A stretch of DNA of 64,000 nt from Candidatus Woesearchaeota archaeon (GTDB lineage Archaea > Nanobdellota > Nanobdellia > Woesearchaeales > JAHWIC01), in NCBI GenBank assembly GCA_019322485.1, contig JAHWIK010000027.1, positions 9,871 to 73,870 of the forward strand, given 5' to 3'. The position numbers and the translations under genes are program-made. The stretch's first letter is position 1, and each line of letters begins with the position of its first letter. The notes beneath the pieces are model-generated. The model did no database searches. It was given only the letters and a program-made list of their open reading frames with translations, and was not told the origin of the DNA. Shown here piece after piece: positions 5,657 through 27,535 of the stretch.

Positions 5657-5657
5657 A

Positions 5658-6456: not shown

Positions 6457-6570
6457 TTATTTTTGATATTGATTATCTTCTAATGATTTTTCTTAATACT
6501 GATTTCTTTTTATTGATCCTTAATTTTGATTTTGACAAATTGATTTCTAATATTTTAGACTCTAGATTTC

Positions 6571-6585
6571 CGAAAGCTTTATATA
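6571..6585 (+). promoter_or_regulatory. BRE/TATA-like promoter element (CGAAAGCTTTATATA)
   Basis: Same consensus as the other promoters in the window, 67 nt upstream of the RHH gene start at 6652. Confidence 0.55.
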
Positions 6586-6611
6586 GTAATTTGTATACTG
6601 ATGTACATATC

Positions 6612-6652
6612 TGTAACAAATCATATTATATTTGTTACAAATTTGTAACAAA
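6612..6652. promoter_or_regulatory. Operator-like triple half-site: TGTAACAAA (6612-6620), TTTGTTACA (6631-6639), TGTAACAAA (6644-6652); 6631-6652 is a perfect 22-bp palindrome
   Basis: Read directly. TTTGTTACAAA|TTTGTAACAAA is self-complementary. The last half-site abuts the ATG (6652) of the RHH gene, and the whole site lies downstream of the TATA box. Confidence 0.65.
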
Positions 6653-6819
6653 TGGCTAAGAGAGTATCAATTTCACTTGATAGAGAACAGATTGAGTTAC
6701 TTAGTTCTGTGAAGGGTTTTGGCAGCAAAGATGCTGAGAAAGTAAAGAACATACTTATGGCATATCTATCTGAGAAGGGCTACTTAGAGGAATTCAATAA
6801 GAAAAAGGTGCGTAGATGA
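6652..6819 (+). CDS. Ribbon-helix-helix (CopG/MetJ-like) DNA-binding protein, 55 aa (not in the ORF track)
   Basis: Hand translation: MAKRVSISLDREQIELLSSVKGFGSKDAEKVKNILMAYLSEKGYLEEFNKKKVRR*. It has the N-terminal beta-strand pattern (RVSISLD) followed by two helices, typical of RHH proteins. The stop TGA (6817-6819) overlaps the ATG (6816-6818) of the 1977-aa gene. Confidence 0.7.
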   Translation: MAKRVSISLDREQIELLSSVKGFGSKDAEKVKNILMAYLSEKGYLEEFNKKKVRR

Positions 6820-12749: not shown

Positions 12750-13360
12750 AGGAAGTTAGTGCACATACATTTGCAAAAATCAAGATTGGTGTAGCTGTAA
12801 CCGCAGTTTTGGCTTTAAGTTTCTATCTATTCAGCAATCCAAATATCACTGGATACGTATCTATAGACTTTATTATGCAGGATTTGGATATTACCCTAAC
12901 CCAAAGCCAGGTCTTTACAATGGGTGCAACTAACCCCCAACCGTTTACCCTGACATCATTTAAGCTGTCAGGAGAGGTTATTGGAGACGGAAGAGTAGAA
13001 ATCTATCTGGAAAACCGTCAGGGCCAGCAGCTTCTGATTTACAGGAATATAAAATCAAAGGACAGGGGCATAAGTGCTATAACAGGGCTTGCTGTTGAAG
13101 GGGGAGAACCAACTGGGAAAGCAGAGGAAGGAACTTATTTTGTAATCACACCCGGCCAAGTAATACAAAATCCTGGATTAATGGAATTATCCGGAAAAGA
13201 GGAAACAATCAGCGGCCCTTTCAGCGATGAATGTGTCGATACATGCTTCATAAGGATGGAATTGTCCAGCAGCACAACATACGGCCTGGTCTTTAAGGTA
13301 GAGCCAGGCACAACGCTGAAGATTGACAGGATATTTTACACAATTGATACAGATGAATGA
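12746..13360 (+). CDS. Stand-alone copy of the membrane-proximal split module (204 aa, N-terminal TM)
   Basis: ATGA overlap with the upstream stop. TM IKIGVAVTAVLALSFYLF, followed by FKLSGEVIGDGRVEIYLENRQGQQLLIYRN ... FSDECVDTCFIRMELSSSTTYGLVFKVEPGTTLKIDRIFYTI. This is paralogous to the N-terminal regions of the three giants. Confidence 0.75.
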   Translation: MKEVSAHTFAKIKIGVAVTAVLALSFYLFSNPNITGYVSIDFIMQDLDITLTQSQVFTMGATNPQPFTLTSFKLSGEVIGDGRVEIYLENRQGQQLLIYRNIKSKDRGISAITGLAVEGGEPTGKAEEGTYFVITPGQVIQNPGLMELSGKEETISGPFSDECVDTCFIRMELSSSTTYGLVFKVEPGTTLKIDRIFYTIDTDE

Positions 13361-13417
13361 TAAAAATGGATAGCAAATGTTTATATACGCTGAAAACATA
13401 AATAGATGTGTGTTTAA

Positions 13418-14254
13418 ATGGTATTAGAGCTGTTAATCAACCCGAAAAAGGTCCAGGGAAAGCCTTGGGAGATGTTTTTCATAGGTTTTGTATACTCATT
13501 CATAGCTGTATTCCTAAGCATGTGGATATTCAAGGGGTATGCAAGCATAGTGATGGTAACCTTAACAGTTGTTGCCTCTGTGCCTTTTGTCCACAGGGTG
13601 ATTGAGCTAGAGGAGAAGAAGGATATTGCCATAAAAAAGGAGCGCAACTTATTGAAAGAGCACGGCAAGGCTATATCAATATTCATGTTTCTGTTCTTAG
13701 GGTTTGTTGCTTCCTTCTGCCTGTTGTATCTAATCCTTCCTGGGGAGACAATCCAGAATGTGTTTAGCGCTCAGATTGAGACAATAATCAGTGTTAATCC
13801 AAATTCACCTGTTGGGAATTTCATCGCCAGCTTTAATGCATTAAGCGCAATATTCTTCAATAACCTCAAGATATTGTTTTTCTGCATCGCGTTTTCCTTC
13901 TTTTATGGTGCAGGGGCGATATTTATCCTGACATGGAATGCTTCTGTGATGGCAACAGCAATTGGTTCATTTATAAAGAATAATCTGCTGGGTGTTGCAG
14001 GTGCAGCAGGCTATCTGCACGTAACTTCTTTAGGTTTGCTGCAGTACTTGATTCATGGCATCCCAGAGATAGTTGCTTATTTTATTGGCGGCTTAGCAAG
14101 CGGGATAATATCGTTTGCTGTCATAAATCATGATTTTATGGGCAAGAAGTTTAAGCATATCCTGCTTGATGCAAGCGACCTGATTTTGATTGCAATAGTT
14201 ATCTTGGTTATCGCAGCACTGCTGGAGGTATTTTTGGTTCCAATCATTGTATGA
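13418..14254 (+). CDS. Polytopic membrane protein, SpoIIM/DUF95-like
   Basis: 278 aa with about 6 TM segments. FFNNLKILFFCIAFSFFYGAGAIFILTWNASVMA and LIHGIPEIVAYFIGGLASG (HG-x-x-E) match my memory of the stage II sporulation protein M family. Confidence 0.5.
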   Translation: MVLELLINPKKVQGKPWEMFFIGFVYSFIAVFLSMWIFKGYASIVMVTLTVVASVPFVHRVIELEEKKDIAIKKERNLLKEHGKAISIFMFLFLGFVASFCLLYLILPGETIQNVFSAQIETIISVNPNSPVGNFIASFNALSAIFFNNLKILFFCIAFSFFYGAGAIFILTWNASVMATAIGSFIKNNLLGVAGAAGYLHVTSLGLLQYLIHGIPEIVAYFIGGLASGIISFAVINHDFMGKKFKHILLDASDLILIAIVILVIAALLEVFLVPIIV

Positions 14255-14317
14255 TTAATAATATTATAGTTGGTAGATTTCTTTTCTCAAGTTAAGTTTC
14301 TAACATCCTAAAAATCA

Positions 14318-14447
14318 ATCTGATTTTTGCTCAAAAAATCAATTTCAGAAAAATAATAAATATGATTTTTGCCTTATTCCTATCTATAAAGCAAAAATCA
14401 TCATCTGTTCTCCTTTATATCCTAGCTTAAAGGAAGGTATGCGGATA
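14318..14447 (+). repeat. Three-hairpin element, copy B (rearranged and 3'-truncated)
   Basis: AATCTGATTTTTGC at 14318-14331, then a second TGATTTTTGCC...AAGCAAAAATCA hairpin (14363-14400). The hairpin-2 remnant TCCTTTA...TAAAGGAAGGTATGCGGAT is nearly identical to copy A. Hairpin 3 is absent and the element runs straight into the TACTTACA array. Confidence 0.65.
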
Positions 14448-14644
14448 CTTACAATTAGGCAAAAATTTGTGCTTGAATACTTACATTAGAGTATAAATTA
14501 ACTTACAAAATACGACATTTACTCATAAAAATTAGAATATTACTTACATTATTGTTCCTATTTACTTACATTAAATGACGAATATACTTAAAAAATAGTA
14601 ATATTTATATATGATTACTTACATTTATGTATAGTATTACTTAA
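14446..14644 (+). repeat. Array of 8 direct TACTTACA(T)/TACTTAA motifs upstream of giant gene 2
   Basis: Motif starts read at 14446, 14478, 14500 (AACTTACA), 14541, 14563, 14585 (TACTTAA), 14616 and 14638 (TACTTAA). Spacings are 32, 22, 41, 22, 22, 31 and 22 nt. All copies are in the same orientation, and the last lies 21 nt before the ATG at 14659. Confidence 0.8.
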
Positions 14645-14658
14645 TTTTAAGAAGATTT

Positions 14659-17600
14659 ATGGAAAATAGGGATTTGAGAGTTAAAAAACCGCAGAAATCA
14701 AGAGAATTAACTAGTTCTAAATTTGTTCAAAAGGTAAAAGCTCCTCTTATTAATGTATTAATCTTGTTGGTTTTATTTGGGGGAATCTACTTCCTAGGGC
14801 CAGGCTTATCTGGTTTTTTTATCGCAGAGCCTGGTATAGTGAGCTATGAACAGGACATCAGTATAAGCGCTGTTGAAGACAAAACAGAGATATGGAGCTT
14901 AGAACAGTATCCTGAACAGTTTGAACTAAGAACAGTACAGCTTAGCGGAAATTATACTGGGGATGGAACATTTAAGGTTTATTTAGAGGGTGAAGAAGGA
15001 ACTAGATATTTGATTTTGGATAATTCTGCAATTGAAACAGAAACATTAGCTGGTGTTACTGGCTATGTGGTAGCAGTTAATGCTTCTGAAGAGGAAATTG
15101 AGGAGGAATTAGTTATAACTTTTGAAGCTGAAGAAGAAAATGAGACTGAGGAGCAGGGAGATGTAATATTTGGGGAGCCTGAGGAAGAAATAATTGAAGA
15201 GGTTAATGAAAGTGAAGAAGTTCTTGAAGAAGTAAACGTAACTGAAGAGATTAATGTTACAGAAGAAGAGGCTGAAGAGGAAGTAGAAGAGATTATTGAA
15301 GAGGAAATTGAGGAAGAGATAACAATTGATTTAGCTTATAATTCTGATACAAACTTTGACTCAAATAATGATGGTATTGAGGATGTTGACGGTGCTGTTG
15401 ACTTTAGTGTTGCTGGTTCTGGGTTTAACTGGGGTGTCGATAGTTCAAAGCTTTGCACAAGATGGCAGGTTTATCCTGTTGGAAGCGAAGAAGCAACCAT
15501 AGTTTGTTATGGCAATGAAGCCTGCTGCAATTTTGTTGGACTGCAGCCTTATATGGATGATTGGGATGACAGCTTTGTGTTGACTTATGCTGCTCATGGT
15601 TCTGATTATGATAACATCGTTTCTGCGCAGGTTATCTATGCTGATATCGATACTGCAGAGATTTATTATTCAAGTTGGGATGAATTGAGCGCCAGATTCA
15701 TATCTGAATTTGTTGCGTTTGAGGATGTTTGTGCTGAAACATGCTTATTGCCTTCTGGTTTGGATTCAACGAGTTATAAGCTTGTGTTTGAGGTTGATTC
15801 TGGTGTATTGAATATTGATAAGATTAGCTATGTTGCTAGAAACTTAACACAGGTCATTGAAGCAGAAGAGTTTGAATTTAATTCTGATATCAAGAATGCA
15901 GGGAATGAGTTAGTTGAGTATGATATTGAATTTGAAGATGTTGACACCAAACAGATTAAGAAAAGTGAACAAATAAGACAAGCAAAAGGCCTGGTAATTG
16001 CTTCTGCACCAGGATTAAGCATTAAAGAAGGAAAATACAACATCAGGATTAAACCAAGAGAACATCCAATCAAATCCATTGTTGTTCACGACGTTAACAT
16101 TAGCTCAAACATAACTGAGTTTATTGATATTGATGATGTTCCTGAATTTGGCGATTATGTTGAAGTCTATGCCATTGACCCAACCAGGTTTAATTTCACA
16201 AATGCAACTGTTACTGTAACAGCAACTGGAAATGAGTTGTACAAATGCAAAGACTGGGATTTCGAAGCACAAAACTGCCAAGGAAGCTGGGAATTGTTCA
16301 AAACAGATTTAGTCCCGGGACAGAATTATACATTTACATTAACTCCAGAGGATCCAGGATTTGCTGAGATTCTAATAACAAAAGCTATACACCTTGATGA
16401 AAATCAAAACTTGATTTCTGATATTTATGACGAAGTTTACCAACTTGATAATGTATGGTCAGAGCCAATCTATGAAAATGAATATGTAAGAGTTACTTTT
16501 GAAGAAGAGCTTGATTCTTCAAAAGATATAACCCTTTATGCAAGAAATAACCAGGGTTTGAATACTAATGTCGAGGTTTATTACTTTAACAGCACAGAGA
16601 AAATAACAGAATTCCCAGTAATAACAGATGAAGATTATTACAAGATTTATTTAACTGATATGCAAGGAAGCCAGGATACATTTGATTTAAAGATTGTCAA
16701 TACTGATTCTGAAACAGCTTATCTTGAATTTGAGCATATAATTGATCCAACAATTGTACAAAGATATTATCTTAGAGGAGCAGGTGGTTCTGGAGCTGGC
16801 CTTAAAGATAAATTAGAAACAACAATAGGGGGTGCGTCAGCTAGCTGGTCACCAACAGCTGATTTACAGACAGCCCTATTTGTTTTTGACACTGCTTATG
16901 CTCAAAATACAATTATAGAGAACCAATCATTTTATCTCTCTGTATGGTGTGATAAAACTGCAAGCCTTGGTGGGGATAATCCTGATATTAGTGCTTATAC
17001 TTTGTATGATTGTGATACAGATAATACCTGCACTTCCCCTGCTCCTGTTCAAATTTGTACAGCTACTGGACTAAGTCTAGATTGTGATTCTACTACAATT
17101 ATAGAGGCAACTTCATCTGCATGCATTAGGGCTACAAATTACACAATGCATCAAGGAGATTATTTAGCATTAGAACTTACAGTTGATTCTAACAAAGCAT
17201 CTTGGCCAAGAATATGGTATAATAGTTCATTATATCCCTCTTATATTAATATTACAGAATTTACAGAAGAAGCACCAGACACAGCAGCTCCTGCAACAGT
17301 AACAAACTTAGCTAATCAGTCTGCTGGCTACACATGGATTTACTGGAACTGGACAAATCCAAGCGATACTGACTTCAACCACACAGAGGTCTGGATAAAT
17401 GGAACATTCTATGCAAATGTCAGTGCCCCTGACAATTTCTATAATGCAACTGGTTTGACAACAGATACTTGGTATGAAATACAAACAAGAACTGTTGACA
17501 ATAATGGAAATATCAACACAACTTGGGTGAATGATAGTGCCAAGACATTAGCTGATACAACAGCTCCTACAACCACACAATTATACCCTCCAGCTGGTTA

Positions 17601-18600
17601 CTGGAATGGTAGTTCTGACCCTTATTCTATCACATTTAATTGTTCTGCAACTGACAATTACAACCTGACAAATATCAGCTTTTACATAACCAATAATCAA
17701 AACATTTCCTTTGCTCTAAACCAAACAACAGATGTTTCAGGAACATCAGCTTATGCAAACTGGACTTTAAGCTTAGCTAATGGAAATTATACCTGGAACT
17801 GTCTGGCTTATGATGCTAGTGGGTTATATGATTGGGGTGATAACAGAACTGTGTTGATTAATTACACAACACCTCCAATAACATTGAATATCACCTCAAT
17901 CCAAATAACCCCAGATGATGATGGAGTAACACCTGGAGCACAGATTAATCCATTAGAAGCGAGCAATGTAAGTGTAAACCTGATTGCTAATATAACAAAT
18001 TCTTCTGCAATGGATGCATGCAAAATAAGGATATGGAACGGCTCTGGAAGCTATACTGTTCCTACTCTTGCCATTGTTACAGGCGAGATACAGGAATTAG
18101 CAGGAGTTACAATATGTAATGCAACCTGGAACATGAGCTACTGGAGAAATCCAGGTGATTGGAATCTAAGTGTTGATGTTAATCAAACTGATGGAGCTAA
18201 GGACCAGGAGAATTCAAGCTATTATTACAATGTATTGACTTCGCATTCGATTAATGTCAGCTACATCAACTTCACTGGTGTGCCTGGGCAGACCATAAAC
18301 AGTTCTACTGCTTATCCATTATCAATCAAGAACACTGGAAACAAGGTCATCAACATCAGCATTAATGGAACAGACTTCATTGGTGTTCAATTCCCTTCCT
18401 ATAACTTCAGCGTTACTAACGCAAGCTATTCTGATACCGAACTTGGTGCTTACACTTCTATCACAACAGTTTATGTGCAAATTACTGACCTGGACAATCT
18501 AGCTCCTACTTCAACTGCCTACCTGTACTTTAGAGGCACGATTCCTGCTGGAACAAAATCACAAACCTATCAGAACACTATTAACATAAAAAGTGATTAA
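14659..18600 (+). CDS. Giant surface protein 2 (1313 aa), N-terminally anchored
   Basis: N-terminal TM LINVLILLVLFGGIYFLGPGLSGFF, then the split module with a long Glu-rich insert (about 15090-15330). A 492-nt segment (15880-16371) is collinear with 8631-9122 of giant 1. An FN3-like unit carries GYTWIYWNWTNPSDTDF (the PGF-pre-PGF-like motif known from methanogen and haloarchaeal surface proteins). At least 30 N-x-S/T sequons occur in the last ~430 aa. Confidence 0.85.
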   Translation: MENRDLRVKKPQKSRELTSSKFVQKVKAPLINVLILLVLFGGIYFLGPGLSGFFIAEPGIVSYEQDISISAVEDKTEIWSLEQYPEQFELRTVQLSGNYTGDGTFKVYLEGEEGTRYLILDNSAIETETLAGVTGYVVAVNASEEEIEEELVITFEAEEENETEEQGDVIFGEPEEEIIEEVNESEEVLEEVNVTEEINVTEEEAEEEVEEIIEEEIEEEITIDLAYNSDTNFDSNNDGIEDVDGAVDFSVAGSGFNWGVDSSKLCTRWQVYPVGSEEATIVCYGNEACCNFVGLQPYMDDWDDSFVLTYAAHGSDYDNIVSAQVIYADIDTAEIYYSSWDELSARFISEFVAFEDVCAETCLLPSGLDSTSYKLVFEVDSGVLNIDKISYVARNLTQVIEAEEFEFNSDIKNAGNELVEYDIEFEDVDTKQIKKSEQIRQAKGLVIASAPGLSIKEGKYNIRIKPREHPIKSIVVHDVNISSNITEFIDIDDVPEFGDYVEVYAIDPTRFNFTNATVTVTATGNELYKCKDWDFEAQNCQGSWELFKTDLVPGQNYTFTLTPEDPGFAEILITKAIHLDENQNLISDIYDEVYQLDNVWSEPIYENEYVRVTFEEELDSSKDITLYARNNQGLNTNVEVYYFNSTEKITEFPVITDEDYYKIYLTDMQGSQDTFDLKIVNTDSETAYLEFEHIIDPTIVQRYYLRGAGGSGAGLKDKLETTIGGASASWSPTADLQTALFVFDTAYAQNTIIENQSFYLSVWCDKTASLGGDNPDISAYTLYDCDTDNTCTSPAPVQICTATGLSLDCDSTTIIEATSSACIRATNYTMHQGDYLALELTVDSNKASWPRIWYNSSLYPSYINITEFTEEAPDTAAPATVTNLANQSAGYTWIYWNWTNPSDTDFNHTEVWINGTFYANVSAPDNFYNATGLTTDTWYEIQTRTVDNNGNINTTWVNDSAKTLADTTAPTTTQLYPPAGYWNGSSDPYSITFNCSATDNYNLTNISFYITNNQNISFALNQTTDVSGTSAYANWTLSLANGNYTWNCLAYDASGLYDWGDNRTVLINYTTPPITLNITSIQITPDDDGVTPGAQINPLEASNVSVNLIANITNSSAMDACKIRIWNGSGSYTVPTLAIVTGEIQELAGVTICNATWNMSYWRNPGDWNLSVDVNQTDGAKDQENSSYYYNVLTSHSINVSYINFTGVPGQTINSSTAYPLSIKNTGNKVINISINGTDFIGVQFPSYNFSVTNASYSDTELGAYTSITTVYVQITDLDNLAPTSTAYLYFRGTIPAGTKSQTYQNTINIKSD

Positions 18601-19128
18601 ATGAAAATAAAAAAGCGAACAAGGACAGAGAAAAAGGATCTGATTAGGTCCAAGTTTGCTAGAGATGAAGATGTACAGTTATTCAAGATAATCCTAAATA
18701 GATTAAAGAAGAAGTATGATGTTTCCTCAACAGAGGTTCTAAGTATAATCAGAGAGGAGATTATGATTCCAAGCACTATCTTTACAAAGATACTAAGTCC
18801 ATTAGAAACTGATGTCAAGTACCTAAAAGAGAACCTGGACCTTGATTATTCAACAATTGCAAAGCTGTTGAAGAGAAACAGAAGAGCAGTCTGGCAGGCT
18901 TATAAGAATGCTGTTAAGAAGTACTCAGAAAAGCTCAAGCCAGAAGAAACAGAATTCAATATCCCTGTCTCTGCACTTAAAGCTGAGTTAAGCATCCTTG
19001 AAGCAACTGTTGCTTATCTGAAAGATGAATACAGGCTTTCCTATCATGAGATTGGCGAGTTACTGCAGAGAGATGAGAGAACTATATGGACTGTTTACAG
19101 CAGGGCTATGAAGAAGTTAAGGAGGTGA
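18601..19128 (+). CDS. Tandem HTH protein (two sigma-70 region-4 / LuxR / HTH_10-like modules)
   Basis: ATG immediately follows the giant-2 stop (18598-18600). Two ~52-aa repeats: IPSTIFTKILSPLETDVKYLKENLDLDYSTIAKLLKRNRRAVWQAYKNAVKK and IPVSALKAELSILEATVAYLKDEYRLSYHEIGELLQRDERTIWTVYSRAMKK. The pattern LS-x-LE...YLKE..LS..EI..LL.R..RTIW..Y.RA.KK resembles region-4-type HTHs. Confidence 0.65.
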   Translation: MKIKKRTRTEKKDLIRSKFARDEDVQLFKIILNRLKKKYDVSSTEVLSIIREEIMIPSTIFTKILSPLETDVKYLKENLDLDYSTIAKLLKRNRRAVWQAYKNAVKKYSEKLKPEETEFNIPVSALKAELSILEATVAYLKDEYRLSYHEIGELLQRDERTIWTVYSRAMKKLRR

Positions 19129-19150
19129 GCCGCGTTTATTCGTTTTCTTA

Positions 19151-19463
19151 AATAATATGTATAAAATACTTACATAATGTGTTGAAATATCAATTCTAGT
19201 TTGTTTTATTCTTATATAATCTGTATAAATACTTACATAATGTGATTAGGATATTAATTCCAGTCTTTATCTGAGCTACATAATATGTATAAATACTTAA
19301 ATAGTGAGTATAAAATACTTACATAATATGTATAAATACTTATATTTATACTGAGATTTATTACATAATATGTATATTTACCTACATATCATGTCTATAG
19401 GTATACTAATCTGTATACTAGTTTCCAAATAAAGCGAAAGATTTATATAAATGCTACTTACTT
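19151..19463 (+). repeat. Iteron-like array of TACTTACAT cores within a ~21-22-nt unit (TACTTACATAATATGTATAAA)
   Basis: Core starts read at 19167, 19230, 19273 (GAGCTACAT), 19294 (TACTTAA), 19316, 19337 (TACTTATAT), 19359 (TATTACAT), 19379 (TACCTACAT) and 19455 (TACTTACT). Spacings are 63, 43, 21, 22, 21, 22, 20 and 76 nt. The unit contains the partial palindrome TACAT-AAT-ATGTA. Confidence 0.8.
19435..19449 (+). promoter_or_regulatory. BRE/TATA-like promoter element (CGAAAGATTTATATA)
   Basis: Consensus match 37 nt upstream of the ATG at 19486. The last TACTTAC copy (19455) sits between the TATA box and the start codon. Confidence 0.55.
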
Positions 19464-19485
19464 AGTATGTAATTAGTCTCACAAA

Positions 19486-20085
19486 ATGGGAAAAAGAGGC
19501 AAAAAAGAGGTTTCAGCAACAGATTTGACTACAGCACATACTGAATTCCTAAAGAGTTTTTTTGCTGGCAAAGGCAAATCAGAACTTCTTGATCTCTTTG
19601 TCAAACACCTCCGAGAAGAACATAAACTAAGTATCGAAGATGTAAATAGGTTGGTGGGGGGGAAGGAGAAGGACATCCTTCTGCCAATCTCTATCTTCGA
19701 TAACAAAAAGCTTAGTGCTTTGGAAGCCATTACAAAATATCTAAAGGAAAACAAAGAACTTAGTTTTCATCAAATTGGTGTTATTCTCAATAGAAACGAG
19801 AGATGCATCTGGACAACTAATAATAATTCTAAGAAAAAAATGAAAGAGGGTTTTGTGCTTAAGCCCTCAAGGTTCCTTATTCCTGCTGACATCTTCACTA
19901 ACCGCAAGCTGAGTGTGCTTGAGAACCTTGTAAAGTATATGAAAGAAAGTTTGGAGCTTAGCCTGCATGAGATTGCTGAACTGCTGCATAGGGATGATAG
20001 AACTATCTGGACTGTTTACAGCAGAGCCACGAGAAAGCAAAAGCTTTCTGGGGTTTCAAACAAGTCTGAAACAAAGAAAAAATGA
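19486..20085 (+). CDS. Tandem HTH protein, paralog of 18601..19128
   Basis: Two modules: LPISIFDNKKLSALEAITKYLKENKELSFHQIGVILNRNERCIWTT and IPADIFTNRKLSVLENLVKYMKESLELSLHEIAELLHRDDRTIWTVYSRATRK. The 3' end is closely similar at nucleotide level to the 3' end of 18601..19128. The stop overlaps the ATG of giant 3 (ATGA, 20082-20085). Confidence 0.65.
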   Translation: MGKRGKKEVSATDLTTAHTEFLKSFFAGKGKSELLDLFVKHLREEHKLSIEDVNRLVGGKEKDILLPISIFDNKKLSALEAITKYLKENKELSFHQIGVILNRNERCIWTTNNNSKKKMKEGFVLKPSRFLIPADIFTNRKLSVLENLVKYMKESLELSLHEIAELLHRDDRTIWTVYSRATRKQKLSGVSNKSETKKK

Positions 20086-23000
20086 CTAAAGGGTATTGGC
20101 TTAGGAGAACTGTATTTGTTTTGATAGCTTTGCTTATGTTTGCCGGCCTGGTTAAGCTAGGTTTGTCAACGATTGTAAAGTCCTCCAGGCCTGATGTTGA
20201 CTTTAACTTAGTTGTTGATAAAGATTCAAGCCTGATGCTGAAGTTTGAAAGAGAAGTCAGGCTAAAATCACTAAGGGTGAGCGGCTCTATTGCCGGGAAT
20301 GGAACAGCCAGGATTTATGTTGAAAATGATGGAAAGAAGTATTTGGTTCTTGACAGCGAAAGACTGGATGAAGCGAATAGCTTAGACATCAGTGATTTAG
20401 AATTTAATGATGGCGAGAATATTGTTGGAGCTGCAGTTAATGAGCTGCCAAAGAAAGATGAGGATAGTAAAGAATCTTTTGACTTATATGCCAGCCCTAC
20501 AATAAACGAAGCCTTGGACAGCTCTGATTTGAATTCTGCCTATGACAGAAGCGGTCATATTATAGAAGAGATGGATTCCAAGTCAAAAGGTTTTGCTGAG
20601 GATGCTGAGGCATCAATGCAGCCTAGTTGCAGTATTGAAGAATCAGCAGGAGATGTCTCCAAGAGTGTAGATAGCTCGGAAAGCGCAGTCTTGTTCAAGG
20701 AGGCGTGTATTGAAACATGCAGTTTGCAAGGATTTGGCAAGCATTCTTACAGGATGGTATTTGAAGTTGATAATGCTGTTATTAATATAGACAAAATAGA
20801 GTATGCTTTCAGAAGGATATGGGAAAAGGAAGAGATAAGACCAGAGCTTGATGTCAGAGACAGTGATGGAAAGACCATTACTTCTTCCATAAAAATCAAA
20901 GATAAAGATGGCATGGTTGTTTCAGAAGAATCTATAGAAAAAGGATTGTATGATGTTGATGTGGAACTATATGCTGGGCCTGTAAAGAGCATTAAGATTG
21001 AGAATATTGATTTGGATGAGAGTGTTACAGATTTTGTAAATGTAGATGATGTGCCTAAAGAAAAAGAAGGAAGATTTGTTGAGGTTTATGCGATTGACCC
21101 CACAGATGTTGAGTTTACACAGGCAACTGTAACTGTAACTGCAAAAGGAAGCTCGCTGTACAAGTGCAAAGGATGGAACTTTACTGAACAAAGATGCTAT
21201 GGTGAATGGGAACTTTTCAAAGCAGACCTTATTCCTGGAAAGGAATACAGCTTTATCCTAACCCCGGAAGACCCTGGTTTTGCTGAGATAAACATAATTG
21301 ATGCTGAACATCTTGATAAGAATAGGGACTTCATTTCCAATATATTTAATGAAACAAATGAACAAGATAATATCTGGTCAGAACAGATTAATCACAGAGA
21401 ATATATAAGGGCAACATTTGAAGAACCGCTGACAAATGGAAATGTAATCAATCTTTATTTAAGGAATACCCAGGGTTTGAATACATTTGTTGAGATATAT
21501 GAGCAAGATGGTTCTGTTGTTGTTGGTTCAACACCTGTAATAGGCTCAACTGGCATGTATAATATTGAATTGGCCGGGTTAAGCGGCTATAATGACATAT
21601 TTGACTTGAATGTAGTCAACCAACAAAACACGCCAAGTGCTTACTTAGAGTTTGATTATATACATGATGCTGCAGATAATGTCTCTCCAGTTATATCAGG
21701 ACTAAATATTAATCCTTCGTTAGAAATAAGCTTCTTTGGAAGCTATAACTTCACTGTAAATGTTACTGATAATAATACTATAGACTTAGTAAACTTAAGT
21801 TACAAAGGAATTAATGCTGAAGGAGGCTCTTGCTTCCAGTATTATGTAAATGGAAGCTGCGAAAATGATGAATATTATACAACAAATATGACTTTAGGGG
21901 ATGCGCCAGAGTATTATAAGAGGGATGTAAGGCCCGATATGATATACCCCCAAATAGAGTTTGCAGATGATGAAATTTATTGGTATAATAGCAGGAAAGG
22001 ACTTGACATATACAAAGACAAATATCACATATTCAAGTTTGTAAATAATTATACAATAAATGCAAACACAAGCTTCTGGATAGAGGTTGATGCTCTTGTC
22101 AAAAGCCAAACCACAAGGGGGCTTAGGGTTTATTTGTTTGACAGAACAACTACAATAACTGATTTCCAAAGCGACTGGACAAACAGCGCTAAAGGAGAAT
22201 TAGTTGCAGAGATAGACAACAATGCTGCAAAAAACCATGCACATACAGATGATAACTCAAGCCATCATTTAATTGCTCTTACAGCTAATTCTGATGGGAC
22301 AATTGGAACCAAGAATCTCAATTTGACTGACTCATTCTTTATTGCATTGTATAACTTAGAGGGCAATGTAAACAAAGCATGGAATATGAGTTATAGAAAT
22401 ACAAGCTTATGCAATACATCTAACTGGTGGCTTGGAGAGGATTCTGGATGGACTACCACACAACAAGAGGGATGTCCTGATACGCATGTACATCTAGCAA
22501 GGTATAATTTAAGCGGTTCAAGTGATGGTGTAAGTGCAACAAGCTGTGCAGAAGACAACTCAAGCAACAGCAACTGTACAACAATAAGCTCCTTCTTTGG
22601 AGCAATATCTAACTTAGCGCCTGTTTCAAATGCTATAAATGTTCCTGAGCCAAGTGGAGTTTATAAGTGCCCTATAAACATATCATGGAATGAGTTTAGT
22701 GATCCAAATGGGGATACAGTAACTTATAATGTTAGTTTGTTAAATGCTGACGAAACATTTAACCAAATAATAAATGATTCTGAATCAAGCACATATTATG
22801 TCTGGAGTTGCGGTTCTATCCCTGATGGAGAATACAGCTTAAAGGTAGAAGGAAGAGACCCTGACAACTTAAGCTCATATTCCACTTTAGGCGGGAACTT
22901 TAGCATAGACAACACACCACCAGCATGGTCAAATAACAACACCTACCCTGCATCAGGAATTCAATACGCTTCTGGGGTGGATTACCAGTTTAATATTACC

Positions 23001-26000
23001 TGGATTGATGCCAGGGCTGGTGTTGATGCAGTATTGTTTGAACATAACTTCACAGGAACATTGAATAATTATTCTTCTAGTGGAAACATAAGCAATGAAC
23101 ATTATTATAATTCCACTAACCTAAGTGCTGGAACTTATGTATGGAGAAGTTACGCAAACGACACACTTGGGTTCACTAATTACACAGAGCAATGGACATA
23201 CATTGTCCAGCCAGATTCAACAGCACCTTCAGTGATAAATGTTACAGCAACACCTTCTTCTATAAACCAGACGCAAACAACAAATATAACAGCAAACATA
23301 ACTGATAGTGGTGGATTAAGCGAGAACGATATTCTTGCGAGGATTGTAAACTCAAATAGCGATATTAATGAATACAATATGAATCAGGATGGAGATATAT
23401 GGTACTATGAGTTTACAACAACCAGCTCACACCCAGGCGGAGTTTATAATATAACCATAAGAGCCAGGGATACTAATAATAACTGGAATGAATCTGAGGG
23501 AACTACACTTACTGTTAATGATATAACGACTCCAAGTGTAACTAATGTACAGCCTGATAATGCTGTCCGTGACTTTGGGAGCGTTGTTGAGATAACTGCT
23601 AATGTAACAGATGAAACTGCTATCAGTGCTGTCAGGGCAAATGTAAGCTGGAGTGGTGTTTATAGCTTTGTTGATATGCATCTGCAGGAAGATAATGTAA
23701 CATATTCTGGGAACTTTTCTCTTACAAATTATATCGATACCTTCACTGTGCAGATACTCGCCAATGATACAAGCAATAACCTAAATAATTCAGAAACATC
23801 TACATTTAATGTTACTGACGAATCTGCGCCGGGATATTATAATATAACTGCCTGGCCTAGCTCTGCAGCATACAGCCCAGGGGCTGCGTACCAATTCAAT
23901 GTAACCTGGACAGATAATTATGCTGTTGATGTTGTTCTGATTGAGCACAATTTTACAGGAAGCTTGCAGAACTACAGCATGAACAACATAAGTTCCGAGT
24001 ATTATTATAATTACACTAACCTGGCTGTTGGCAGTTATGTGTGGAGAAGTTATGCTAATGATACCTCTGACAATAGAAACAAAACCACACAGCAGAGTTA
24101 TACTGTAGATAAGGTTAACTCAACATGCAGCCTTGTGTTCTCGCAAACATCACCGCAGGATTATGGAACAGCAATTAATGCAAGCTGCAGCTGCACAAAC
24201 CTGGAAGTAAGCGCTGTGCTGTACAGAAATGGAACAGATGCAAGTTCTGAGAACAACCAGCTTGTTATTTTAGCTGTTGGAGACCACCTGTATAACTGCA
24301 CAACCTCTGCTACGCAGAATTACACCTCTGCTCAGAATTCTTCAACATATACAATAAACAAGGTAACATCTACAGTAAACCTAACCTTGAATGGCTATGA
24401 CAGCAACATCACAATAAACCAGACTCAGTCAGTGACTATTAATGCAACCTTGGTGACCCCAAGCAGCGGATATATTGAGCTTTACCAGGACAGCGGGCTT
24501 ATCAACAGCGGCCAGTCACCATTAACAAACACAACAACCTATAATGATTACGGCACATTCAACATTACTGTTACTTATTCGGAAACTCAAAACTACAGCT
24601 CAAGCTTTGAAACGCATTTCATAAGTGTGCAGGATGTTATTTCTCCTGGTTCTGTAACAAACCTGGAGGAGACTGCAGTTGGTTATACATGGATATACTG
24701 GAACTGGACAAACCCAGGCGATACTGACTTTGATGAAGCTATCGTATATATAGATGGAGTCAATGAAGTGAACACATCAAACAGTTATTACAATGCAACT
24801 GGATTAACATCAAACACAAACCACACAATCTCTATAAGAACCAAAGATACCTCGGGGAATATAAACACCACATGGGTTAATGACACAGCAGCAACACTGG
24901 CTGATACTACAGTTCCACAGATAACGTCCTATGCAGTAACGCCGAGGGTAGTGATAATTGATAGGGATGTCTCAATAACAGCTAATGCAACTGATGATGT
25001 TGATACTCCTTCAACATACGCAAATATAACGCTGCCTAACAGCACAGTTCTTACTTTGGCATTGCAGTCAAATTACACTGCGCAGATATCAGGAAGGCAT
25101 AATGTAACAATAATAGCAAATGACTCGTCAGGAAATACAGCAACTGAAACTGATTACTTTATTGCTGCAGGACCTGTTAATTTCACAGTCTTTAGCGAAG
25201 GGCCTAACTCCAGCAGCCTGGAAATGAACCTAACCTTATTCTTCCCTGGAACAGATGAAGAGCTTAATGAGCATGTGATTACAGGCAACATGTCCAATGA
25301 ATACGCTGGCTATCTTTATGATTTGGAATTTGCAGCATTAAACAGAACAATTGTTGTAGAGTTGGGAAGCTCAAACCTGACAACAAACAACAATAAAACA
25401 ATGGGCTTTGACAAACTGCCAAGCCCTGTCAGCGGGTACTTGATATCTTATGGAATCTATTCAACATTTAGCTTTGGCAGCGCAGTTGTAACATTATCCT
25501 ATGAGGGTATAAACTATACTACTGAAAGTAATCTAAGGGTATTTAGATGTGATAATTGGGACTTCGATAACAGGGCATGCTCCAGTTCATTTGAGAGTAT
25601 TAGCGGTGTACAGAGCACCTCTGCAAACAAATTTACATTAACTGTATCCAGCTTCTCAGGATTTTCAATCAGAGAGGTTACGCCTGCAGCTGCAGCTGAG
25701 GAAGAAGAGGAGGGGGAAGAGGTGTGGAGAAGGTCAAGAGGTTGCTTCTTCAGCTGGGAATGCGGCAATTGGAGCGAGTGCTCTATAAACGAAACAGAGA
25801 GGAGGGACTGCACAAATGCAGGAACCTGCCCAGATACTTTCAAGGCTCCTGAAACAGAGAGGCCATGCAATTACACGCCTTCATGTGATGATGGTGTAAA
25901 GAATGGCGATGAAGAAGGCATTGACTGCGGTGGTTCTTGTGCAGAGTGTGTTGAGTGTATTAATGATACTGATTGTGAGGAAGATTATCAATGCATGGAA

Positions 26001-26732
26001 AATGTCTGTGTAGCTCCACAGCCAGCACCTGAAGAACCGATGCCTGAACCAGATGTCACGCAGATAGATGGTTATGTCCTTCTTTTAGCGCTCTTAGTTT
26101 TTATCCTGACTGTTTATCTAATATTCAGCTCTATAAAGTGGTATGCGACTAAATATATGATGGAGGAAGAGAAAGGAGAGGGGGCAGAGAAAGCAGCGAA
26201 ACCAAAGAAGAGAATGAGAATACTAAGGCACAGAAAAAAGATTGAACCAAAGGAAACTATCAAGAAGGAAATAAAAGAAAAAACTGAAGAAAGCAAAAAA
26301 GAGAGGCCGAAAACAGAAGAAAAGAAGGAAGAGGAGAAGAAAAAAGAAGAACAGCCGAAAACAGAGGAGAAGAAAGAAACAGCTCCTGCTCCAGAAAAAG
26401 AAAAAACCCCAAAAACCCCTGCTAAAAAGAAAAAAGAAAAAGTAATTGGAGGGTTAAAAGAGACCTACACCAATAGTGGAGATATATATGTTAACGCCTT
26501 CAGAAAAAGGCAGGAAGAAAATGAGTTGGCTAAGGAAGATGAAGAGACAGAGCCAATCAAAGGCATTAGGACCAATAAAGAAGATGTTCTCAATCAATTA
26601 AAGGATGCTTACAAATTAGACAGCTTAGGCCCAAAATCCAGTATCAGGATAGAGCCAAGGCAAAGTCTGCAAGATATTATTAAGGAAAAAACAGATGAAG
26701 ATGAATCAAAAAACAATGAGGTGTTCAAATGA
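20082..26732 (+). CDS. Giant surface protein 3 (2216 aa) with single C-terminal TM and ~225-aa K/E-rich cytoplasmic tail
   Basis: N-terminal TM, the split module (VRLKSLRVSGSIAGNGTARIYVENDGKKYLVLDSE ... FKEACIETCSLQGFGKHSYRMVFEVDNAVINIDKIEYAF) and the YAIDPT...LYKCKGWNF...DPGFAEI module (about 20955-21289). Also many Ig-like units delimited by D-x-T-x-P, an FN3-like GYTWIYWNWTNPGDTDF unit, a W/C module at 25744-25868, a CDDGVKNGDEEGIDCGGSCAEC motif, the TM YVLLLALLVFILTVYLIF and a Lys/Glu-rich tail. Confidence 0.85.
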   Translation: MTKGYWLRRTVFVLIALLMFAGLVKLGLSTIVKSSRPDVDFNLVVDKDSSLMLKFEREVRLKSLRVSGSIAGNGTARIYVENDGKKYLVLDSERLDEANSLDISDLEFNDGENIVGAAVNELPKKDEDSKESFDLYASPTINEALDSSDLNSAYDRSGHIIEEMDSKSKGFAEDAEASMQPSCSIEESAGDVSKSVDSSESAVLFKEACIETCSLQGFGKHSYRMVFEVDNAVINIDKIEYAFRRIWEKEEIRPELDVRDSDGKTITSSIKIKDKDGMVVSEESIEKGLYDVDVELYAGPVKSIKIENIDLDESVTDFVNVDDVPKEKEGRFVEVYAIDPTDVEFTQATVTVTAKGSSLYKCKGWNFTEQRCYGEWELFKADLIPGKEYSFILTPEDPGFAEINIIDAEHLDKNRDFISNIFNETNEQDNIWSEQINHREYIRATFEEPLTNGNVINLYLRNTQGLNTFVEIYEQDGSVVVGSTPVIGSTGMYNIELAGLSGYNDIFDLNVVNQQNTPSAYLEFDYIHDAADNVSPVISGLNINPSLEISFFGSYNFTVNVTDNNTIDLVNLSYKGINAEGGSCFQYYVNGSCENDEYYTTNMTLGDAPEYYKRDVRPDMIYPQIEFADDEIYWYNSRKGLDIYKDKYHIFKFVNNYTINANTSFWIEVDALVKSQTTRGLRVYLFDRTTTITDFQSDWTNSAKGELVAEIDNNAAKNHAHTDDNSSHHLIALTANSDGTIGTKNLNLTDSFFIALYNLEGNVNKAWNMSYRNTSLCNTSNWWLGEDSGWTTTQQEGCPDTHVHLARYNLSGSSDGVSATSCAEDNSSNSNCTTISSFFGAISNLAPVSNAINVPEPSGVYKCPINISWNEFSDPNGDTVTYNVSLLNADETFNQIINDSESSTYYVWSCGSIPDGEYSLKVEGRDPDNLSSYSTLGGNFSIDNTPPAWSNNNTYPASGIQYASGVDYQFNITWIDARAGVDAVLFEHNFTGTLNNYSSSGNISNEHYYNSTNLSAGTYVWRSYANDTLGFTNYTEQWTYIVQPDSTAPSVINVTATPSSINQTQTTNITANITDSGGLSENDILARIVNSNSDINEYNMNQDGDIWYYEFTTTSSHPGGVYNITIRARDTNNNWNESEGTTLTVNDITTPSVTNVQPDNAVRDFGSVVEITANVTDETAISAVRANVSWSGVYSFVDMHLQEDNVTYSGNFSLTNYIDTFTVQILANDTSNNLNNSETSTFNVTDESAPGYYNITAWPSSAAYSPGAAYQFNVTWTDNYAVDVVLIEHNFTGSLQNYSMNNISSEYYYNYTNLAVGSYVWRSYANDTSDNRNKTTQQSYTVDKVNSTCSLVFSQTSPQDYGTAINASCSCTNLEVSAVLYRNGTDASSENNQLVILAVGDHLYNCTTSATQNYTSAQNSSTYTINKVTSTVNLTLNGYDSNITINQTQSVTINATLVTPSSGYIELYQDSGLINSGQSPLTNTTTYNDYGTFNITVTYSETQNYSSSFETHFISVQDVISPGSVTNLEETAVGYTWIYWNWTNPGDTDFDEAIVYIDGVNEVNTSNSYYNATGLTSNTNHTISIRTKDTSGNINTTWVNDTAATLADTTVPQITSYAVTPRVVIIDRDVSITANATDDVDTPSTYANITLPNSTVLTLALQSNYTAQISGRHNVTIIANDSSGNTATETDYFIAAGPVNFTVFSEGPNSSSLEMNLTLFFPGTDEELNEHVITGNMSNEYAGYLYDLEFAALNRTIVVELGSSNLTTNNNKTMGFDKLPSPVSGYLISYGIYSTFSFGSAVVTLSYEGINYTTESNLRVFRCDNWDFDNRACSSSFESISGVQSTSANKFTLTVSSFSGFSIREVTPAAAAEEEEEGEEVWRRSRGCFFSWECGNWSECSINETERRDCTNAGTCPDTFKAPETERPCNYTPSCDDGVKNGDEEGIDCGGSCAECVECINDTDCEEDYQCMENVCVAPQPAPEEPMPEPDVTQIDGYVLLLALLVFILTVYLIFSSIKWYATKYMMEEEKGEGAEKAAKPKKRMRILRHRKKIEPKETIKKEIKEKTEESKKERPKTEEKKEEEKKKEEQPKTEEKKETAPAPEKEKTPKTPAKKKKEKVIGGLKETYTNSGDIYVNAFRKRQEENELAKEDEETEPIKGIRTNKEDVLNQLKDAYKLDSLGPKSSIRIEPRQSLQDIIKEKTDEDESKNNEVFK

Positions 26733-27535
26733 GCGGTAAAATTGTTGGTATAATAGCTATAAAAGGCGGTGTTGGCAAGACAACTACTGTATCAAACCTT
26801 GGAGCTGTTTTAGCTAAAGAATTTGGCAAAAAGGTTTTGCTTGTTGATGCGAATTACACTGCACCAAACCTGGGGCTGCATTTAGGGATTGTAAAGCCAG
26901 AGGTTACTCTGCACGATGTTATGCGCAATAAAGTGCCTGTCAGCCAGGCAATACATGAGCATGAGCTTGGTTTTCATATAATTCCCTCTGCACTTGCCGG
27001 AAGAAAGGTCAATGCGTTTAAGCTTAAGGAGAAGATATCACACTTAAAGGAACTCTATGATGTTATCCTGATAGATTCCTCTCCTGCGCTTAATGAGGAG
27101 ATACTTTCCACAATGATAGCCTCTGATGAACTGTTTGTTGTAAGCAGCCCAGACTATCCTACACTAAGCTGTACAATGCATGCTGTAAGAATTGCCAAGC
27201 GCAAAAGAACACCAATAACAGGAATTATACTCAACAAAAGCAGGAACAAAAAATTTGAATTAAATGTTGGTGAAATAGAGGATGCTACTGGGGTTCCTGT
27301 GCTGGCTACACTGCCTGATGATGTCAAGGTTTTGGAGGCCCTGTCAGAGATGAAACCTGCCTCGATAAGAAGCCCAAAGCGTGATGTCTCTGTCGAATAC
27401 AAGAAACTAGCTGCTTCACTGATTGGAGAGAAATACATTGACAAAAGGCTTAAAGCAAGAATCAAGAGATTCATCTTTGTGGAAGAGCCTGATAAGATGG
27501 ATATCAACCGGTTATTAGCACCAAAGGACAAGTAG
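26729..27535 (+). CDS. MinD/ParA-family P-loop ATPase
   Basis: Deviant Walker A AIKGGVGKTTTVSNLG, then VLLVDAN and VILIDSSPAL (Walker B-like). Length is 268 aa. The ATG overlaps the stop of giant 3 (ATGA at 26729-26732), preceded by GAGGTG. Confidence 0.85.
   Translation: MSGKIVGIIAIKGGVGKTTTVSNLGAVLAKEFGKKVLLVDANYTAPNLGLHLGIVKPEVTLHDVMRNKVPVSQAIHEHELGFHIIPSALAGRKVNAFKLKEKISHLKELYDVILIDSSPALNEEILSTMIASDELFVVSSPDYPTLSCTMHAVRIAKRKRTPITGIILNKSRNKKFELNVGEIEDATGVPVLATLPDDVKVLEALSEMKPASIRSPKRDVSVEYKKLAASLIGEKYIDKRLKARIKRFIFVEEPDKMDINRLLAPKDK

What the first reader, a model, noticed from the sequence alone, without database searches (positions are those of the whole stretch)
19151..19463. Iteron-like tandem 21-22-nt repeats (TACTTACATAATATGTATAAA) in a 357-nt AT-rich intergenic region
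Nine cores have spacings of 63, 43, 21, 22, 21, 22, 20 and 76 nt, mostly one, two or three units of about 21 nt. Three to four units are head-to-tail (19294-19380). Each unit contains TACAT-AAT-ATGTA, a short palindrome. The last core (19455) lies between the TATA box (19435-19449) and the ATG of the tandem-HTH gene, a position suited to autorepression. The architecture also resembles plasmid-type iterons, and a ParA/MinD gene lies 7 kb downstream, so a replication or partition role is a weaker alternative.
Basis: partly seen in the sequence, partly recalled or inferred. Interest (0 to 1): 0.65.

Follow-up and report, generated by a model that had tools for sequence, protein, structure and literature searches.

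The report
Operator array of a DPANN tandem-HTH regulator
The repeats are a row of binding sites in the promoter of a gene for a DNA-binding regulator found only in tiny symbiotic (DPANN) archaea, and the same site-plus-regulator pairing recurs in dozens of related genomes, so this is most likely the self-controlled switch for a giant surface-protein operon and not a replication origin.

Summary
The 357-nt gap 19129-19485 (23% GC) holds 10 same-strand copies of a 17-nt dyad site (TACTTACATAATATGTA), plus two degenerate or variant units. Spacings are 21, 22, 42 and 43 nt, and part of the array grew by a 64-nt tandem duplication.

It is not an iteron origin. The same motif lies upstream of homologues of the flanking tandem-HTH gene in 72 of 80 Woesearchaeota/Nanoarchaeia loci. 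It is 98-fold enriched over the rest of those loci and about 11-fold over other intergenic DNA. One copy starts 12-14 nt after the first T of the TATA box in 32 of 57 scored promoters (13 nt here). Spacings are phased at 10.5-10.6 bp. Half-site changes track changes in the recognition helix of one or the other HTH module.

Best reading: this is the operator array of a DPANN-specific regulator made of two sigma-70-region-4-like HTH modules. The regulator controls its own operon (HTH2, giant surface protein, MinD), most likely by repression at the TATA-proximal site. A second array (14446-14640) serves the paralogous giant2-HTH1 operon.

Binding and the sign of regulation are inferred, not shown.

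The parts
14446..14640 (+). Sister array A1: about 9 phased TACTTACA(T) half-site-dominated units upstream of the giant2-HTH1 operon. One unit (14616) starts 12 nt after the first T of TATA 14604-14611.
   Evidence: Exact TACTTACA at 14446, 14478, 14541, 14563 and 14616; spacings 32, 22, 41, 22, 22.
14659..18600 (+). Giant surface protein 2 (1313 aa, N-terminal anchor, rich in N-glycosylation sequons), paralog of giant 3.
   Evidence: 45% identity over 348 aa.
18601..19128 (+). HTH1 (175 aa): two tandem sigma-70-region-4-like HTH modules (helices RNRRAVWQAY and RDERTIWTVY), placed directly after giant 2.
19129..19149 (+). T-rich tract (GCCGCGTTTATTCGTTTTCTT) right after the HTH1 stop. Probable oligo-T terminator of the upstream operon (inferred). 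It overlaps the first unit.
   Evidence: Sequence; inference from known archaeal oligo-T termination.
19145..19161 (+). Site 1, TTCTTAAATAATATGTA (PWM 13.2).
19167..19183 (+). Site 2, TACTTACATAATGTGTT (PWM 17.6).
19209..19225 (+). Site 3, TTCTTATATAATCTGTA (PWM 14.0). Start of the second 64-nt block.
19230..19246 (+). Site 4, TACTTACATAATGTGAT (PWM 15.7).
19273..19289 (+). Site 5, GAGCTACATAATATGTA (PWM 9.7).
19294..19310 (+). Site 6, TACTTAAATAGTGAGTA (PWM 15.2).
19316..19332 (+). Site 7, TACTTACATAATATGTA (PWM 21.6, the best site and the family consensus).
19337..19353 (+). Degenerate unit, TACTTATATTTATACTG. In register, but below the PWM threshold.
19358..19374 (+). Site 8, TTATTACATAATATGTA (PWM 11.3). 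Position -128 from the ATG is conserved in four orthologs.
19379..19395 (+). Site 9, TACCTACATATCATGTC (PWM 12.8). Position -107 is conserved in the window, L002 and L003.
19401..19418 (+). Variant palindromic unit GTATACTAATCTGTATAC, 54 nt upstream of the proximal site and nearly invariant in four orthologs.
   Evidence: The 53 +/- 1 nt pair that brackets the TATA box is the commonest spacing family-wide.
19435..19449 (+). BRE-like purine run plus TATA box (GCGAAAGATTTATATA; TTTATATA = 19442-19449).
   Evidence: Invariant in four orthologs. TATA-to-site rule.
19455..19471 (+). Proximal operator O1, TACTTACTTAGTATGTA. It is the most symmetric site (PWM 18.2 on +, 15.1 on -) and starts 13 nt after the first T of TATA. 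It therefore covers about -17 to -1 of the predicted start site.
19486..20085 (+). HTH2 (199 aa): tandem sigma-4-like HTH regulator (helices RNERCIWTTN and RDDRTIWTVY). Its stop overlaps the giant 3 start.
20082..26732 (+). Giant surface protein 3 (2216 aa), co-transcribed target.
26729..27535 (+). MinD/ParA-type ATPase, translationally coupled to giant 3. Last gene of the presumed operon.

Best explanation
The repeats are a helically phased array of operators for a DPANN-specific family of transcription regulators. Each regulator is a single chain with two sigma-70-region-4-like HTH modules, represented here by HTH2 (19486-20085) and its paralog HTH1 (18601-19128). One protein molecule reads one 17-bp dyad site. 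The family consensus is TACTTAC-N3-GTAAGTA; the version here is TACTTAC-ATAAT-ATGTA. The C-terminal module reads the left half and the N-terminal module reads the right half. The proximal site O1 (19455-19471) lies between the TATA box and the predicted transcription start. Occupancy there should block RNA polymerase recruitment, giving negative autoregulation of the HTH2-giant3-MinD operon. The roughly 11 upstream units all lie on one face of the DNA at 2-turn steps. They would load protein cooperatively, sharpening the response and holding a local pool of regulator. A sister array does the same for the giant2-HTH1 operon.

Shown here: the array, its conservation, its fixed promoter geometry, its phasing, the motif-regulator association and the covariation.

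Inferred: that the HTH proteins are the binders, the one-protein-per-site stoichiometry, the start site, and that the net effect is repression.
For: 1. Specificity within the window. PWM hits of 11 or more fall only in the two gaps upstream of the two HTH-containing operons, apart from one isolated coding hit at 43224. All 8 exact TACTTACA copies are in those gaps.

2. Orthologs. Three loci have an 80%-identical HTH2 but a different upstream gene (Rpr2). They keep the array, with sites at -128 and -31 from the ATG in all four loci and at -107 in three. They also keep an invariant BRE/TATA, and they differ in copy number: 6, 7 and 9 sites against 10 here.

3. Family-wide enrichment. In 75 usable loci the unbiased 7-mer test puts TACTTAC first, with 121 copies against 1.2 expected (98-fold) and presence in 47 loci. 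A PWM finds at least one upstream site in 72 of 80 loci, at more than 100 times the density of the rest. Against other intergenic DNA of equal GC the density is 5.11 against 0.48 per kb.

4. Promoter geometry. The distance from the first T of the TATA box to the start of the site is 12-14 nt in 32 of 57 scored promoters. In many loci the site ends at the start codon, which suggests leaderless transcripts.

5. Phasing. Rayleigh R is 0.64 at 10.5-10.6 bp for 142 spacings, against a null maximum of 0.25.

6. Covariation. Loci whose module-2 helix is RDERNIW lose the left half TACTTAC (1 of 12 against 26 of 33, p = 3e-5) and use TACATAT, while keeping the right half. Loci whose module-1 helix is RxERNIWH keep TACTTAC but lose (A/G)TAAGTA (0 of 7 against 22 of 33, p = 0.0017) and use A(A/C/T)(T/C)GTA. 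The window's HTH2 has RNERCIW in module 1 and the matching ATGTA right half.

7. Structure. The AlphaFold model (pLDDT 82) shows two 3-helix modules. Each superposes on ECF sigma region 4, the -35-binding domain, at 0.8-0.9 A over 47 residues. Both recognition helices are nearly identical, which fits a dyad site.

8. Known precedent. Archaeal repressors that bind between TATA and the start site block RNAP recruitment (own knowledge of MDR1, LrpA and Phr). Cooperative, regularly spaced autoregulatory sites are documented for Ss-LrpB (PMC4046817).
Against: There is no binding, footprint or expression data. No RNA run holds the locus, so the start site is only predicted from the TATA box.

The PWM was trained on the same upstream regions, so its enrichment figures are partly circular. 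The k-mer test is not.

The covariation classes are probably single clades, so the Fisher p-values overstate independence.

Ten to twelve sites is far more than simple autorepression needs. A conserved site about 53 nt upstream of O1 sits where archaeal activators bind, so the sign could be dual or positive.

The size of the regulon in this organism is therefore unknown.
Confidence: 0.75

Rival explanations
1. The same proteins bind the same sites, but the array is mainly an upstream activating sequence. In the extreme form the two-sigma-4 protein acts as a promoter-specificity factor. Bound protein on the face of the DNA upstream of BRE/TATA recruits TBP/TFB or RNAP, and O1 only tunes the output, giving dual concentration-dependent control as in Ss-LrpB.
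For: A conserved site lies about 53 nt upstream of O1, ending about 17 nt before BRE, where archaeal activators such as Ptr2 bind. This pair is the commonest spacing. Ss-LrpB shows both positive and negative autoregulation from regularly spaced sites. The modules are sigma-region-4 folds. Castelle et al. found no anti-sigma partner and left the role of these genes open (PMC8204110).
Against: The most rigidly placed and most widely conserved site is the one between TATA and the start codon, which is the classic repressor position. The proteins have no sigma region 2 or other RNAP-binding part.
Confidence: 0.15
2. The sites are real operators, but they are bound by a different, unlinked regulator. 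The HTH genes are merely its targets.
For: No binding data exist. The association rests on gene position only.
Against: The half-sites change in step with the recognition helix of the adjacent HTH protein, module by module. The dyad site fits a protein with two near-identical helices. The motif follows the HTH gene even where neighbouring genes differ.
Confidence: 0.05
3. The repeats are iterons of a replication origin, or a centromere-like partition site served by the MinD/ParA ATPase 7 kb downstream.
For: The repeats are tandem, about 21 nt long and same-oriented in an AT-rich gap, and a ParA/MinD gene sits in the same operon. The archaeal pNOB8 AspA-ParB-ParA system also starts from a palindrome upstream of its own operon (own knowledge).
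Against: The context is chromosomal housekeeping (MetRS at 28903, Rpr2 at 2641). No Rep, Orc1/Cdc6 or ParB domain was found among the window ORFs scanned. Cumulative GC skew rises steadily through 19 kb and genes run the same way on both sides. The motif occurs at two or more promoters per genome, always oriented with the downstream gene and locked to the TATA box. No MinD lies within 4 kb downstream in 80 loci, and the fully seen operons in L004 and L009 lack it. There is no similarity to any plasmid record.
Confidence: 0.03
4. The repeats are functionless, made by replication slippage in AT-rich spacer DNA.
For: The 64-nt higher-order period and the differing copy numbers among orthologs show recent duplication and loss.
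Against: The core motif is conserved across proteins only 40-55% identical. Position relative to TATA is fixed and spacing is phased. Slippage explains how copy number changes, not why the motif is kept.
Confidence: 0.02

Closest known systems
Ss-LrpB control region of Sulfolobus solfataricus (Lrp/FFRP family)
   Same: [quoted passage not shown] It deforms or wraps the DNA and autoregulates in a concentration-dependent way (PMC4046817).
   Different: Ss-LrpB is an Lrp-type wHTH plus RAM-domain dimer with three 15-bp boxes. Here the protein is a single chain with two sigma-4-like HTH modules and no effector domain, there are 10-12 sites of 17 bp, and one site lies between TATA and the start site.
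Bacterial sigma-70 / ECF sigma region 4 (the -35 binding domain)
   Same: Each module has the same 3-helix fold (rmsd 0.8-0.9 A to SigR, SigL and SigW region 4), and Pfam and NCBIfam hit only region 4. These are probably the 'sigma-70' genes reported as prevalent in Woesearchaeota (PMC8204110); that identity was not checked.
   Different: There is no region 2, 3 or 1.x, so the protein is not a sigma factor. Region 4 is duplicated in tandem. It works in an organism with a TBP/TFB promoter, and its sites sit downstream and upstream of a TATA box, not at -35.
Plasmid iterons (e.g. pPS10, RK2, F)
   Same: Tandem, same-oriented repeats of about 21-22 bp spaced at two helical turns in an AT-rich gap. 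They are bound (there) by a protein that also autorepresses its own gene.
   Different: There is no Rep initiator, no origin context and no plasmid. The repeats are tied to a TATA box and recur at several promoters.
Archaeal repressors acting between TATA and start site (MDR1, LrpA, Phr, NrpR)
   Same: The operator overlaps the region from about -17 to +1. The expected mechanism is a block of RNAP recruitment after TBP/TFB binding (own knowledge).
   Different: Different protein families, and usually one to three sites rather than a long phased array.

Membership tests
Autoregulatory operator array of a helix-turn-helix transcription factor | The motif lies in the promoter of the regulator's own gene and overlaps core promoter elements. 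| tested here: met
   O1 at 19455-19471 starts 13 nt after the first T of TATA. The distance is 12-14 nt in 32 of 57 scored promoters.
Autoregulatory operator array of a helix-turn-helix transcription factor | The motif travels with the regulator gene across genomes, whatever the neighbouring genes are. | tested here: met
   72 of 80 loci; 98-fold k-mer enrichment; different upstream genes (Rpr2, KaiC-like ATPase, HTH1).
Autoregulatory operator array of a helix-turn-helix transcription factor | DNA specificity co-varies with recognition-helix residues. | tested here: met
   Reciprocal changes of module and half-site. Caveat: few independent clades.
Autoregulatory operator array of a helix-turn-helix transcription factor | The protein physically binds the sites and changes transcription. 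| not testable with these tools
Plasmid-type iteron origin | Adjacent gene for a Rep initiator, or Orc1/Cdc6 with ORB boxes in archaea. | tested here: not met
   Pfam scans of most window ORFs found none; the giant surface-protein ORFs at 31058-34378 and 50680-56475 were not scanned. The neighbours in 9 fetched loci are Rpr2, Spt5, L11 and a KaiC-like ATPase.
Plasmid-type iteron origin | Location on an extrachromosomal replicon, or a strand-bias switch at the site. | tested here: not met
   MetRS and Rpr2 on the contig; cumulative GC skew is monotonic; genes are co-oriented. No plasmid match.
ParABS-type partition centromere | The repeats are linked to a conserved parA plus centromere-binding-protein cassette. 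| tested here: not met
   MinD/ParA is present here, but absent within 4 kb downstream in 80 loci and absent from the complete operons of L004 and L009. No ParB was found. Limit: the 4-kb flanks often end inside the giant gene.
Sigma-70 family sigma factor (for the flanking proteins) | Region 2 (-10 recognition and core binding) present together with region 4. | tested here: not met
   Only region-4 models hit, all far below the whole-protein cut-offs of the sigma-factor families. The model shows two region-4-like modules plus an N-terminal helical part.

The most novel reading that the evidence does not exclude
The two-sigma-4 proteins are not plain repressors. They are sigma-like promoter-specificity factors grafted onto an archaeal TBP/TFB promoter. 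The site locked 12-14 nt after the TATA box would then be part of promoter recognition for a dedicated surface-protein regulon. Paralogs with diverged half-site codes (HTH1 against HTH2) would select which giant adhesin operon is expressed, giving a switch between alternative host-contact proteins in an episymbiont.
Probability: 0.08. Interest if true: 0.9.

Novelty: new variant of a known kind. Interest (0 to 1): 0.6.

Why it matters
DPANN archaea are uncultured or hard to culture, and almost nothing is known about how they regulate genes. 'Sigma-70-like' genes were reported as common in Woesearchaeota, with the mechanism left open (PMC8204110). This work gives that family a concrete, testable role. 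It supplies a defined 17-bp operator, a fixed promoter geometry, a half-site-to-module recognition code, and a target set centred on giant surface proteins, the likely host-contact molecules of these symbionts. The regulator-operator pair can be tested with recombinant protein and synthetic DNA, without culturing the organism. The PWM can also be used to map the regulon in hundreds of metagenome-assembled genomes.

Tried and rejected
- Extending the contig through edge proteins: not on record.
- Exact 17-mer scan of metagenome contigs. Only one hit (L147) carried an HTH homolog, so the scan was uninformative.
- Rfam and tRNA scans of the window: nothing, so there is no support for a structured-RNA reading.
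- RNA-seq evidence for a start site: no RNA run holds the locus; only marine-sediment DNA runs do.
- Plasmid and phage similarity for the array and the protein: none.
- Origin or partition reading: rejected on context, skew and lack of conserved ParA.
- Whole-protein fold search: no full-length structural relative, only per-module sigma-4 matches.
- L064 shows a giant protein and an HTH in one frame. I considered a membrane-tethered factor but did not accept it, because no transmembrane segment separates the parts. A lost stop codon is as likely.

Full report
**The observation**

The gap between the stop of a 175-aa gene (18601-19128, HTH1) and the ATG of a 199-aa gene (19486-20085, HTH2) is 357 nt at 23% GC. 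Tandem Repeats Finder reports a 21-nt period over 19277-19388 and a 64-nt period over 19145-19317. The expected number is 0.61 and no shuffle reaches 7.

A position weight matrix built later places ten sites at 19145, 19167, 19209, 19230, 19273, 19294, 19316, 19358, 19379 and 19455. All are on the + strand, with spacings 22, 42, 21, 43, 21, 22, 42, 21 and 76. A degenerate unit at 19337 and a variant palindrome at 19401-19418 (GTATACTAATCTGTATAC) fill two of the gaps.

The three aligned 64-nt blocks show that part of the array grew by tandem duplication.

**Context**

The window is archaeal chromosome, not a plasmid. It carries MetRS (28903-30972) and the RNase P subunit Rpr2 (2641-2967), and most of the rest is giant surface-protein genes, nearly all on the + strand. 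Homologues of its proteins come from Woesearchaeota/Nanoarchaeia (DPANN) assemblies.

HTH1 and HTH2 are paralogs, 38% identical. Each has two tandem modules that hit only sigma-70 region 4 models. The giants next to them are paralogs too. This gives two operons:
- array A1 (14446-14640), giant2, HTH1;
- array A2 (this finding), HTH2, giant3, MinD/ParA.

All 8 exact TACTTACA copies in the window lie in these two gaps. Apart from one isolated coding hit at 43224, all PWM hits of 11 or more lie there as well.

**Close relatives**

Three contigs encode an HTH2 about 80% identical, followed by a giant gene. Their upstream gene is Rpr2, not HTH1. They still carry the array.

The last 160 nt align at 77% identity. 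AAAGCGAAA and TTTATATA are invariant and only the two bases between them vary. The proximal site sits in the same place in all four loci, and sites lie at -128 and -31 from the ATG in all four and at -107 in three. The distal part differs in copy number: 6, 7 and 9 sites against 10 here.

**Distant relatives**

Homologues only 52-56% identical sit in a different neighbourhood: Spt5, L11, a KaiC-like ATPase, then a gap, then HTH, a small ORF and a giant. They also have 5-7 copies of TACTTACA-N-(T)AAGTA in a 270-360-nt gap, one of them just after the TATA box.

I then fetched 80 loci from species-representative genomes. Of 471 pattern matches, 447 encode a relative.
- An unbiased 7-mer comparison of the 350 nt upstream of the HTH gene against the other 477 kb puts TACTTAC first: 121 copies against 1.2 expected, present in 47 of 75 loci.
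- The aligned sites give a 17-bp dyad, TACTTACATA(A/G)TAAGTA, that is TACTTAC-N3-GTAAGTA. The left half is the stronger. The window's best unit, TACTTACATAATATGTA, matches the aligned-site consensus TACTTACATAATAAGTA at 16 of 17 positions and is the window's top-scoring PWM site.
- The PWM finds an upstream site in 72 of 80 loci, at more than 100 times the background density.
- Against other intergenic DNA of the same GC content, the density is 5.11 against 0.48 per kb.
- The other intergenic hits are themselves clustered in front of further HTH paralogs, giant genes and small membrane or secreted proteins. The motif therefore marks a small regulon.

**Geometry**

The distance from the first T of the TATA box to the start of the proximal site is 12-14 nt in 32 of 57 scored promoters and 13 nt here. 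The site often ends at the start codon, which implies leaderless transcripts. With a TATA box centred near -26, the site covers roughly -17 to -1.

Spacings between neighbouring sites cluster at 21, 32, 42, 53 and 63 nt. Rayleigh R is 0.64 at a period of 10.5-10.6 bp for 142 spacings, against a null maximum of 0.25. All sites therefore face one side of the helix. A pair 53 +/- 1 nt apart that brackets the TATA box is the commonest arrangement. In the window that pair is the variant unit at 19401 and O1 at 19455.

**Who binds**

The AlphaFold model of HTH2 (pLDDT 82) has two 3-helix modules after an N-terminal helical part. Each module superposes on the -35-binding domain of ECF sigma factors at 0.8-0.9 A. 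No full-length structural relative was found. Both recognition helices read R(D/N)(D/E)RTIWT across the family, which fits a dyad site.

The strongest argument is covariation.
- In 12 loci the module-2 helix is RDERNIW. There the left half TACTTAC is lost (1 of 12 loci against 26 of 33) and replaced by TACATAT, while the right half stays.
- In 7 loci the module-1 helix is RxERNIWH. There TACTTAC stays, but (A/G)TAAGTA is absent (0 of 7 against 22 of 33) and is replaced by A(A/C/T)(T/C)GTA.
- The window's HTH2 has RNERCIW in module 1 and, fittingly, ATGTA as its right half.
- HTH1 has a divergent module 1 (RNRRAVWQ). The array in front of its operon keeps only the left half.

These classes are probably few clades, so the p-values overstate independence. 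The reciprocal pattern is nevertheless what direct reading by one chain per site predicts.

**Mechanism**

I commit to an operator array for these regulators. Occupancy of O1 between TATA and the start site blocks RNAP recruitment, giving negative autoregulation of HTH2, giant3 and MinD. The phased upstream units load protein cooperatively on one face of the DNA.

The sign of regulation is inferred from the site's position, following known archaeal repressors. Ss-LrpB shows that regularly spaced autoregulatory sites can give both activation and repression, so I keep a dual or positive mode as the main rival.

**Rejected readings**

An origin or iteron function is not supported.
- No Rep or Orc1/Cdc6 gene was found among the window ORFs scanned.
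- Cumulative GC skew is monotonic.
- Genes are co-oriented on both sides.
- The motif occurs at several promoters per genome and is locked to the TATA box.
- There is no plasmid similarity.

A partition role is not supported either. MinD/ParA is not a conserved partner, although the 4-kb flanks limit that test. Pure slippage explains copy-number change but not conservation of the motif.

**Comparison with what is known**

Castelle et al. reported 'sigma-70' genes as prevalent in Woesearchaeota, found no anti-sigma factor, and left the mechanism open (PMC8204110). The proteins here fail the sigma-factor test because they have no region 2. I found no description of their operator, of the two-module architecture, or of the link to giant surface proteins.

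The kind of element, autoregulatory operators, is ordinary. The regulator family, the one-chain two-sigma-4 reading of a dyad, the long phased arrays and the target genes are new.

**Limits**

No RNA data exist. Binding was not tested.

Noticed in passing
window 2968-19128 compared with L001 5654, L002 5747, L003 5577: In the three closest relatives, Rpr2 sits directly in front of the array and HTH2. In the window about 16 kb lies between Rpr2 and the array: an 867-aa and a 186-aa protein, giant 1, a 204-aa protein, a SpoIIM-like protein, giant 2 and HTH1. This is a lineage-specific insertion or deletion of a whole surface-protein block.
   Followed up: partly
L064 185-4471: A giant surface protein and a tandem-HTH regulator are read in one frame with no stop between them (1428 aa). 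This is either a gene fusion or a lost stop codon. No clear transmembrane segment separates the two parts.
   Followed up: partly
L082 3640-3720; L081 upstream of the HTH start: A conserved hairpin-forming element (CTAAATTTrGGyTTGCAG ... CTGCAA..GGGGATTT) lies between the operator-bearing promoter and the HTH start codon in some lineages. It could be a leader RNA structure or a small mobile repeat.
   Followed up: no
L082 2457-3931; L058 7695-8435: Non-coding AT-rich stretches of 0.7-1.5 kb carry extra TACTTACA clusters. They lie next to a conserved minus-strand 157-aa winged-helix-like gene and a small gene encoding PISRKFHDWLKTKGMKGESYE..., which looks antitoxin-like.
   Followed up: no
window 19401-19418: The palindrome GTATAC-TAATCT-GTATAC is nearly invariant in four orthologs. 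It may be a variant operator or the site of a second factor.
   Followed up: partly
L074 3908-4967: Two HTH paralogs sit in tandem after a 695-aa giant-like gene, with two TATA-plus-operator units 55 nt apart in front of the giant gene. The in-gene TACTTACA at 4662 is simply the codons of the conserved KYLHEN motif.
   Followed up: partly
record titles of L011, L012, L014, L015 and others: Many species-representative assemblies titled 'uncultured Methanosarcinales archaeon' carry this Woesearchaeota/Nanoarchaeia-type locus and are probably mislabelled.
   Followed up: no
window 26729-26732: The MinD/ParA start overlaps the giant 3 stop (ATGA). The ATPase is therefore made together with a surface protein that has a long Lys/Glu-rich cytoplasmic tail.
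   Followed up: no
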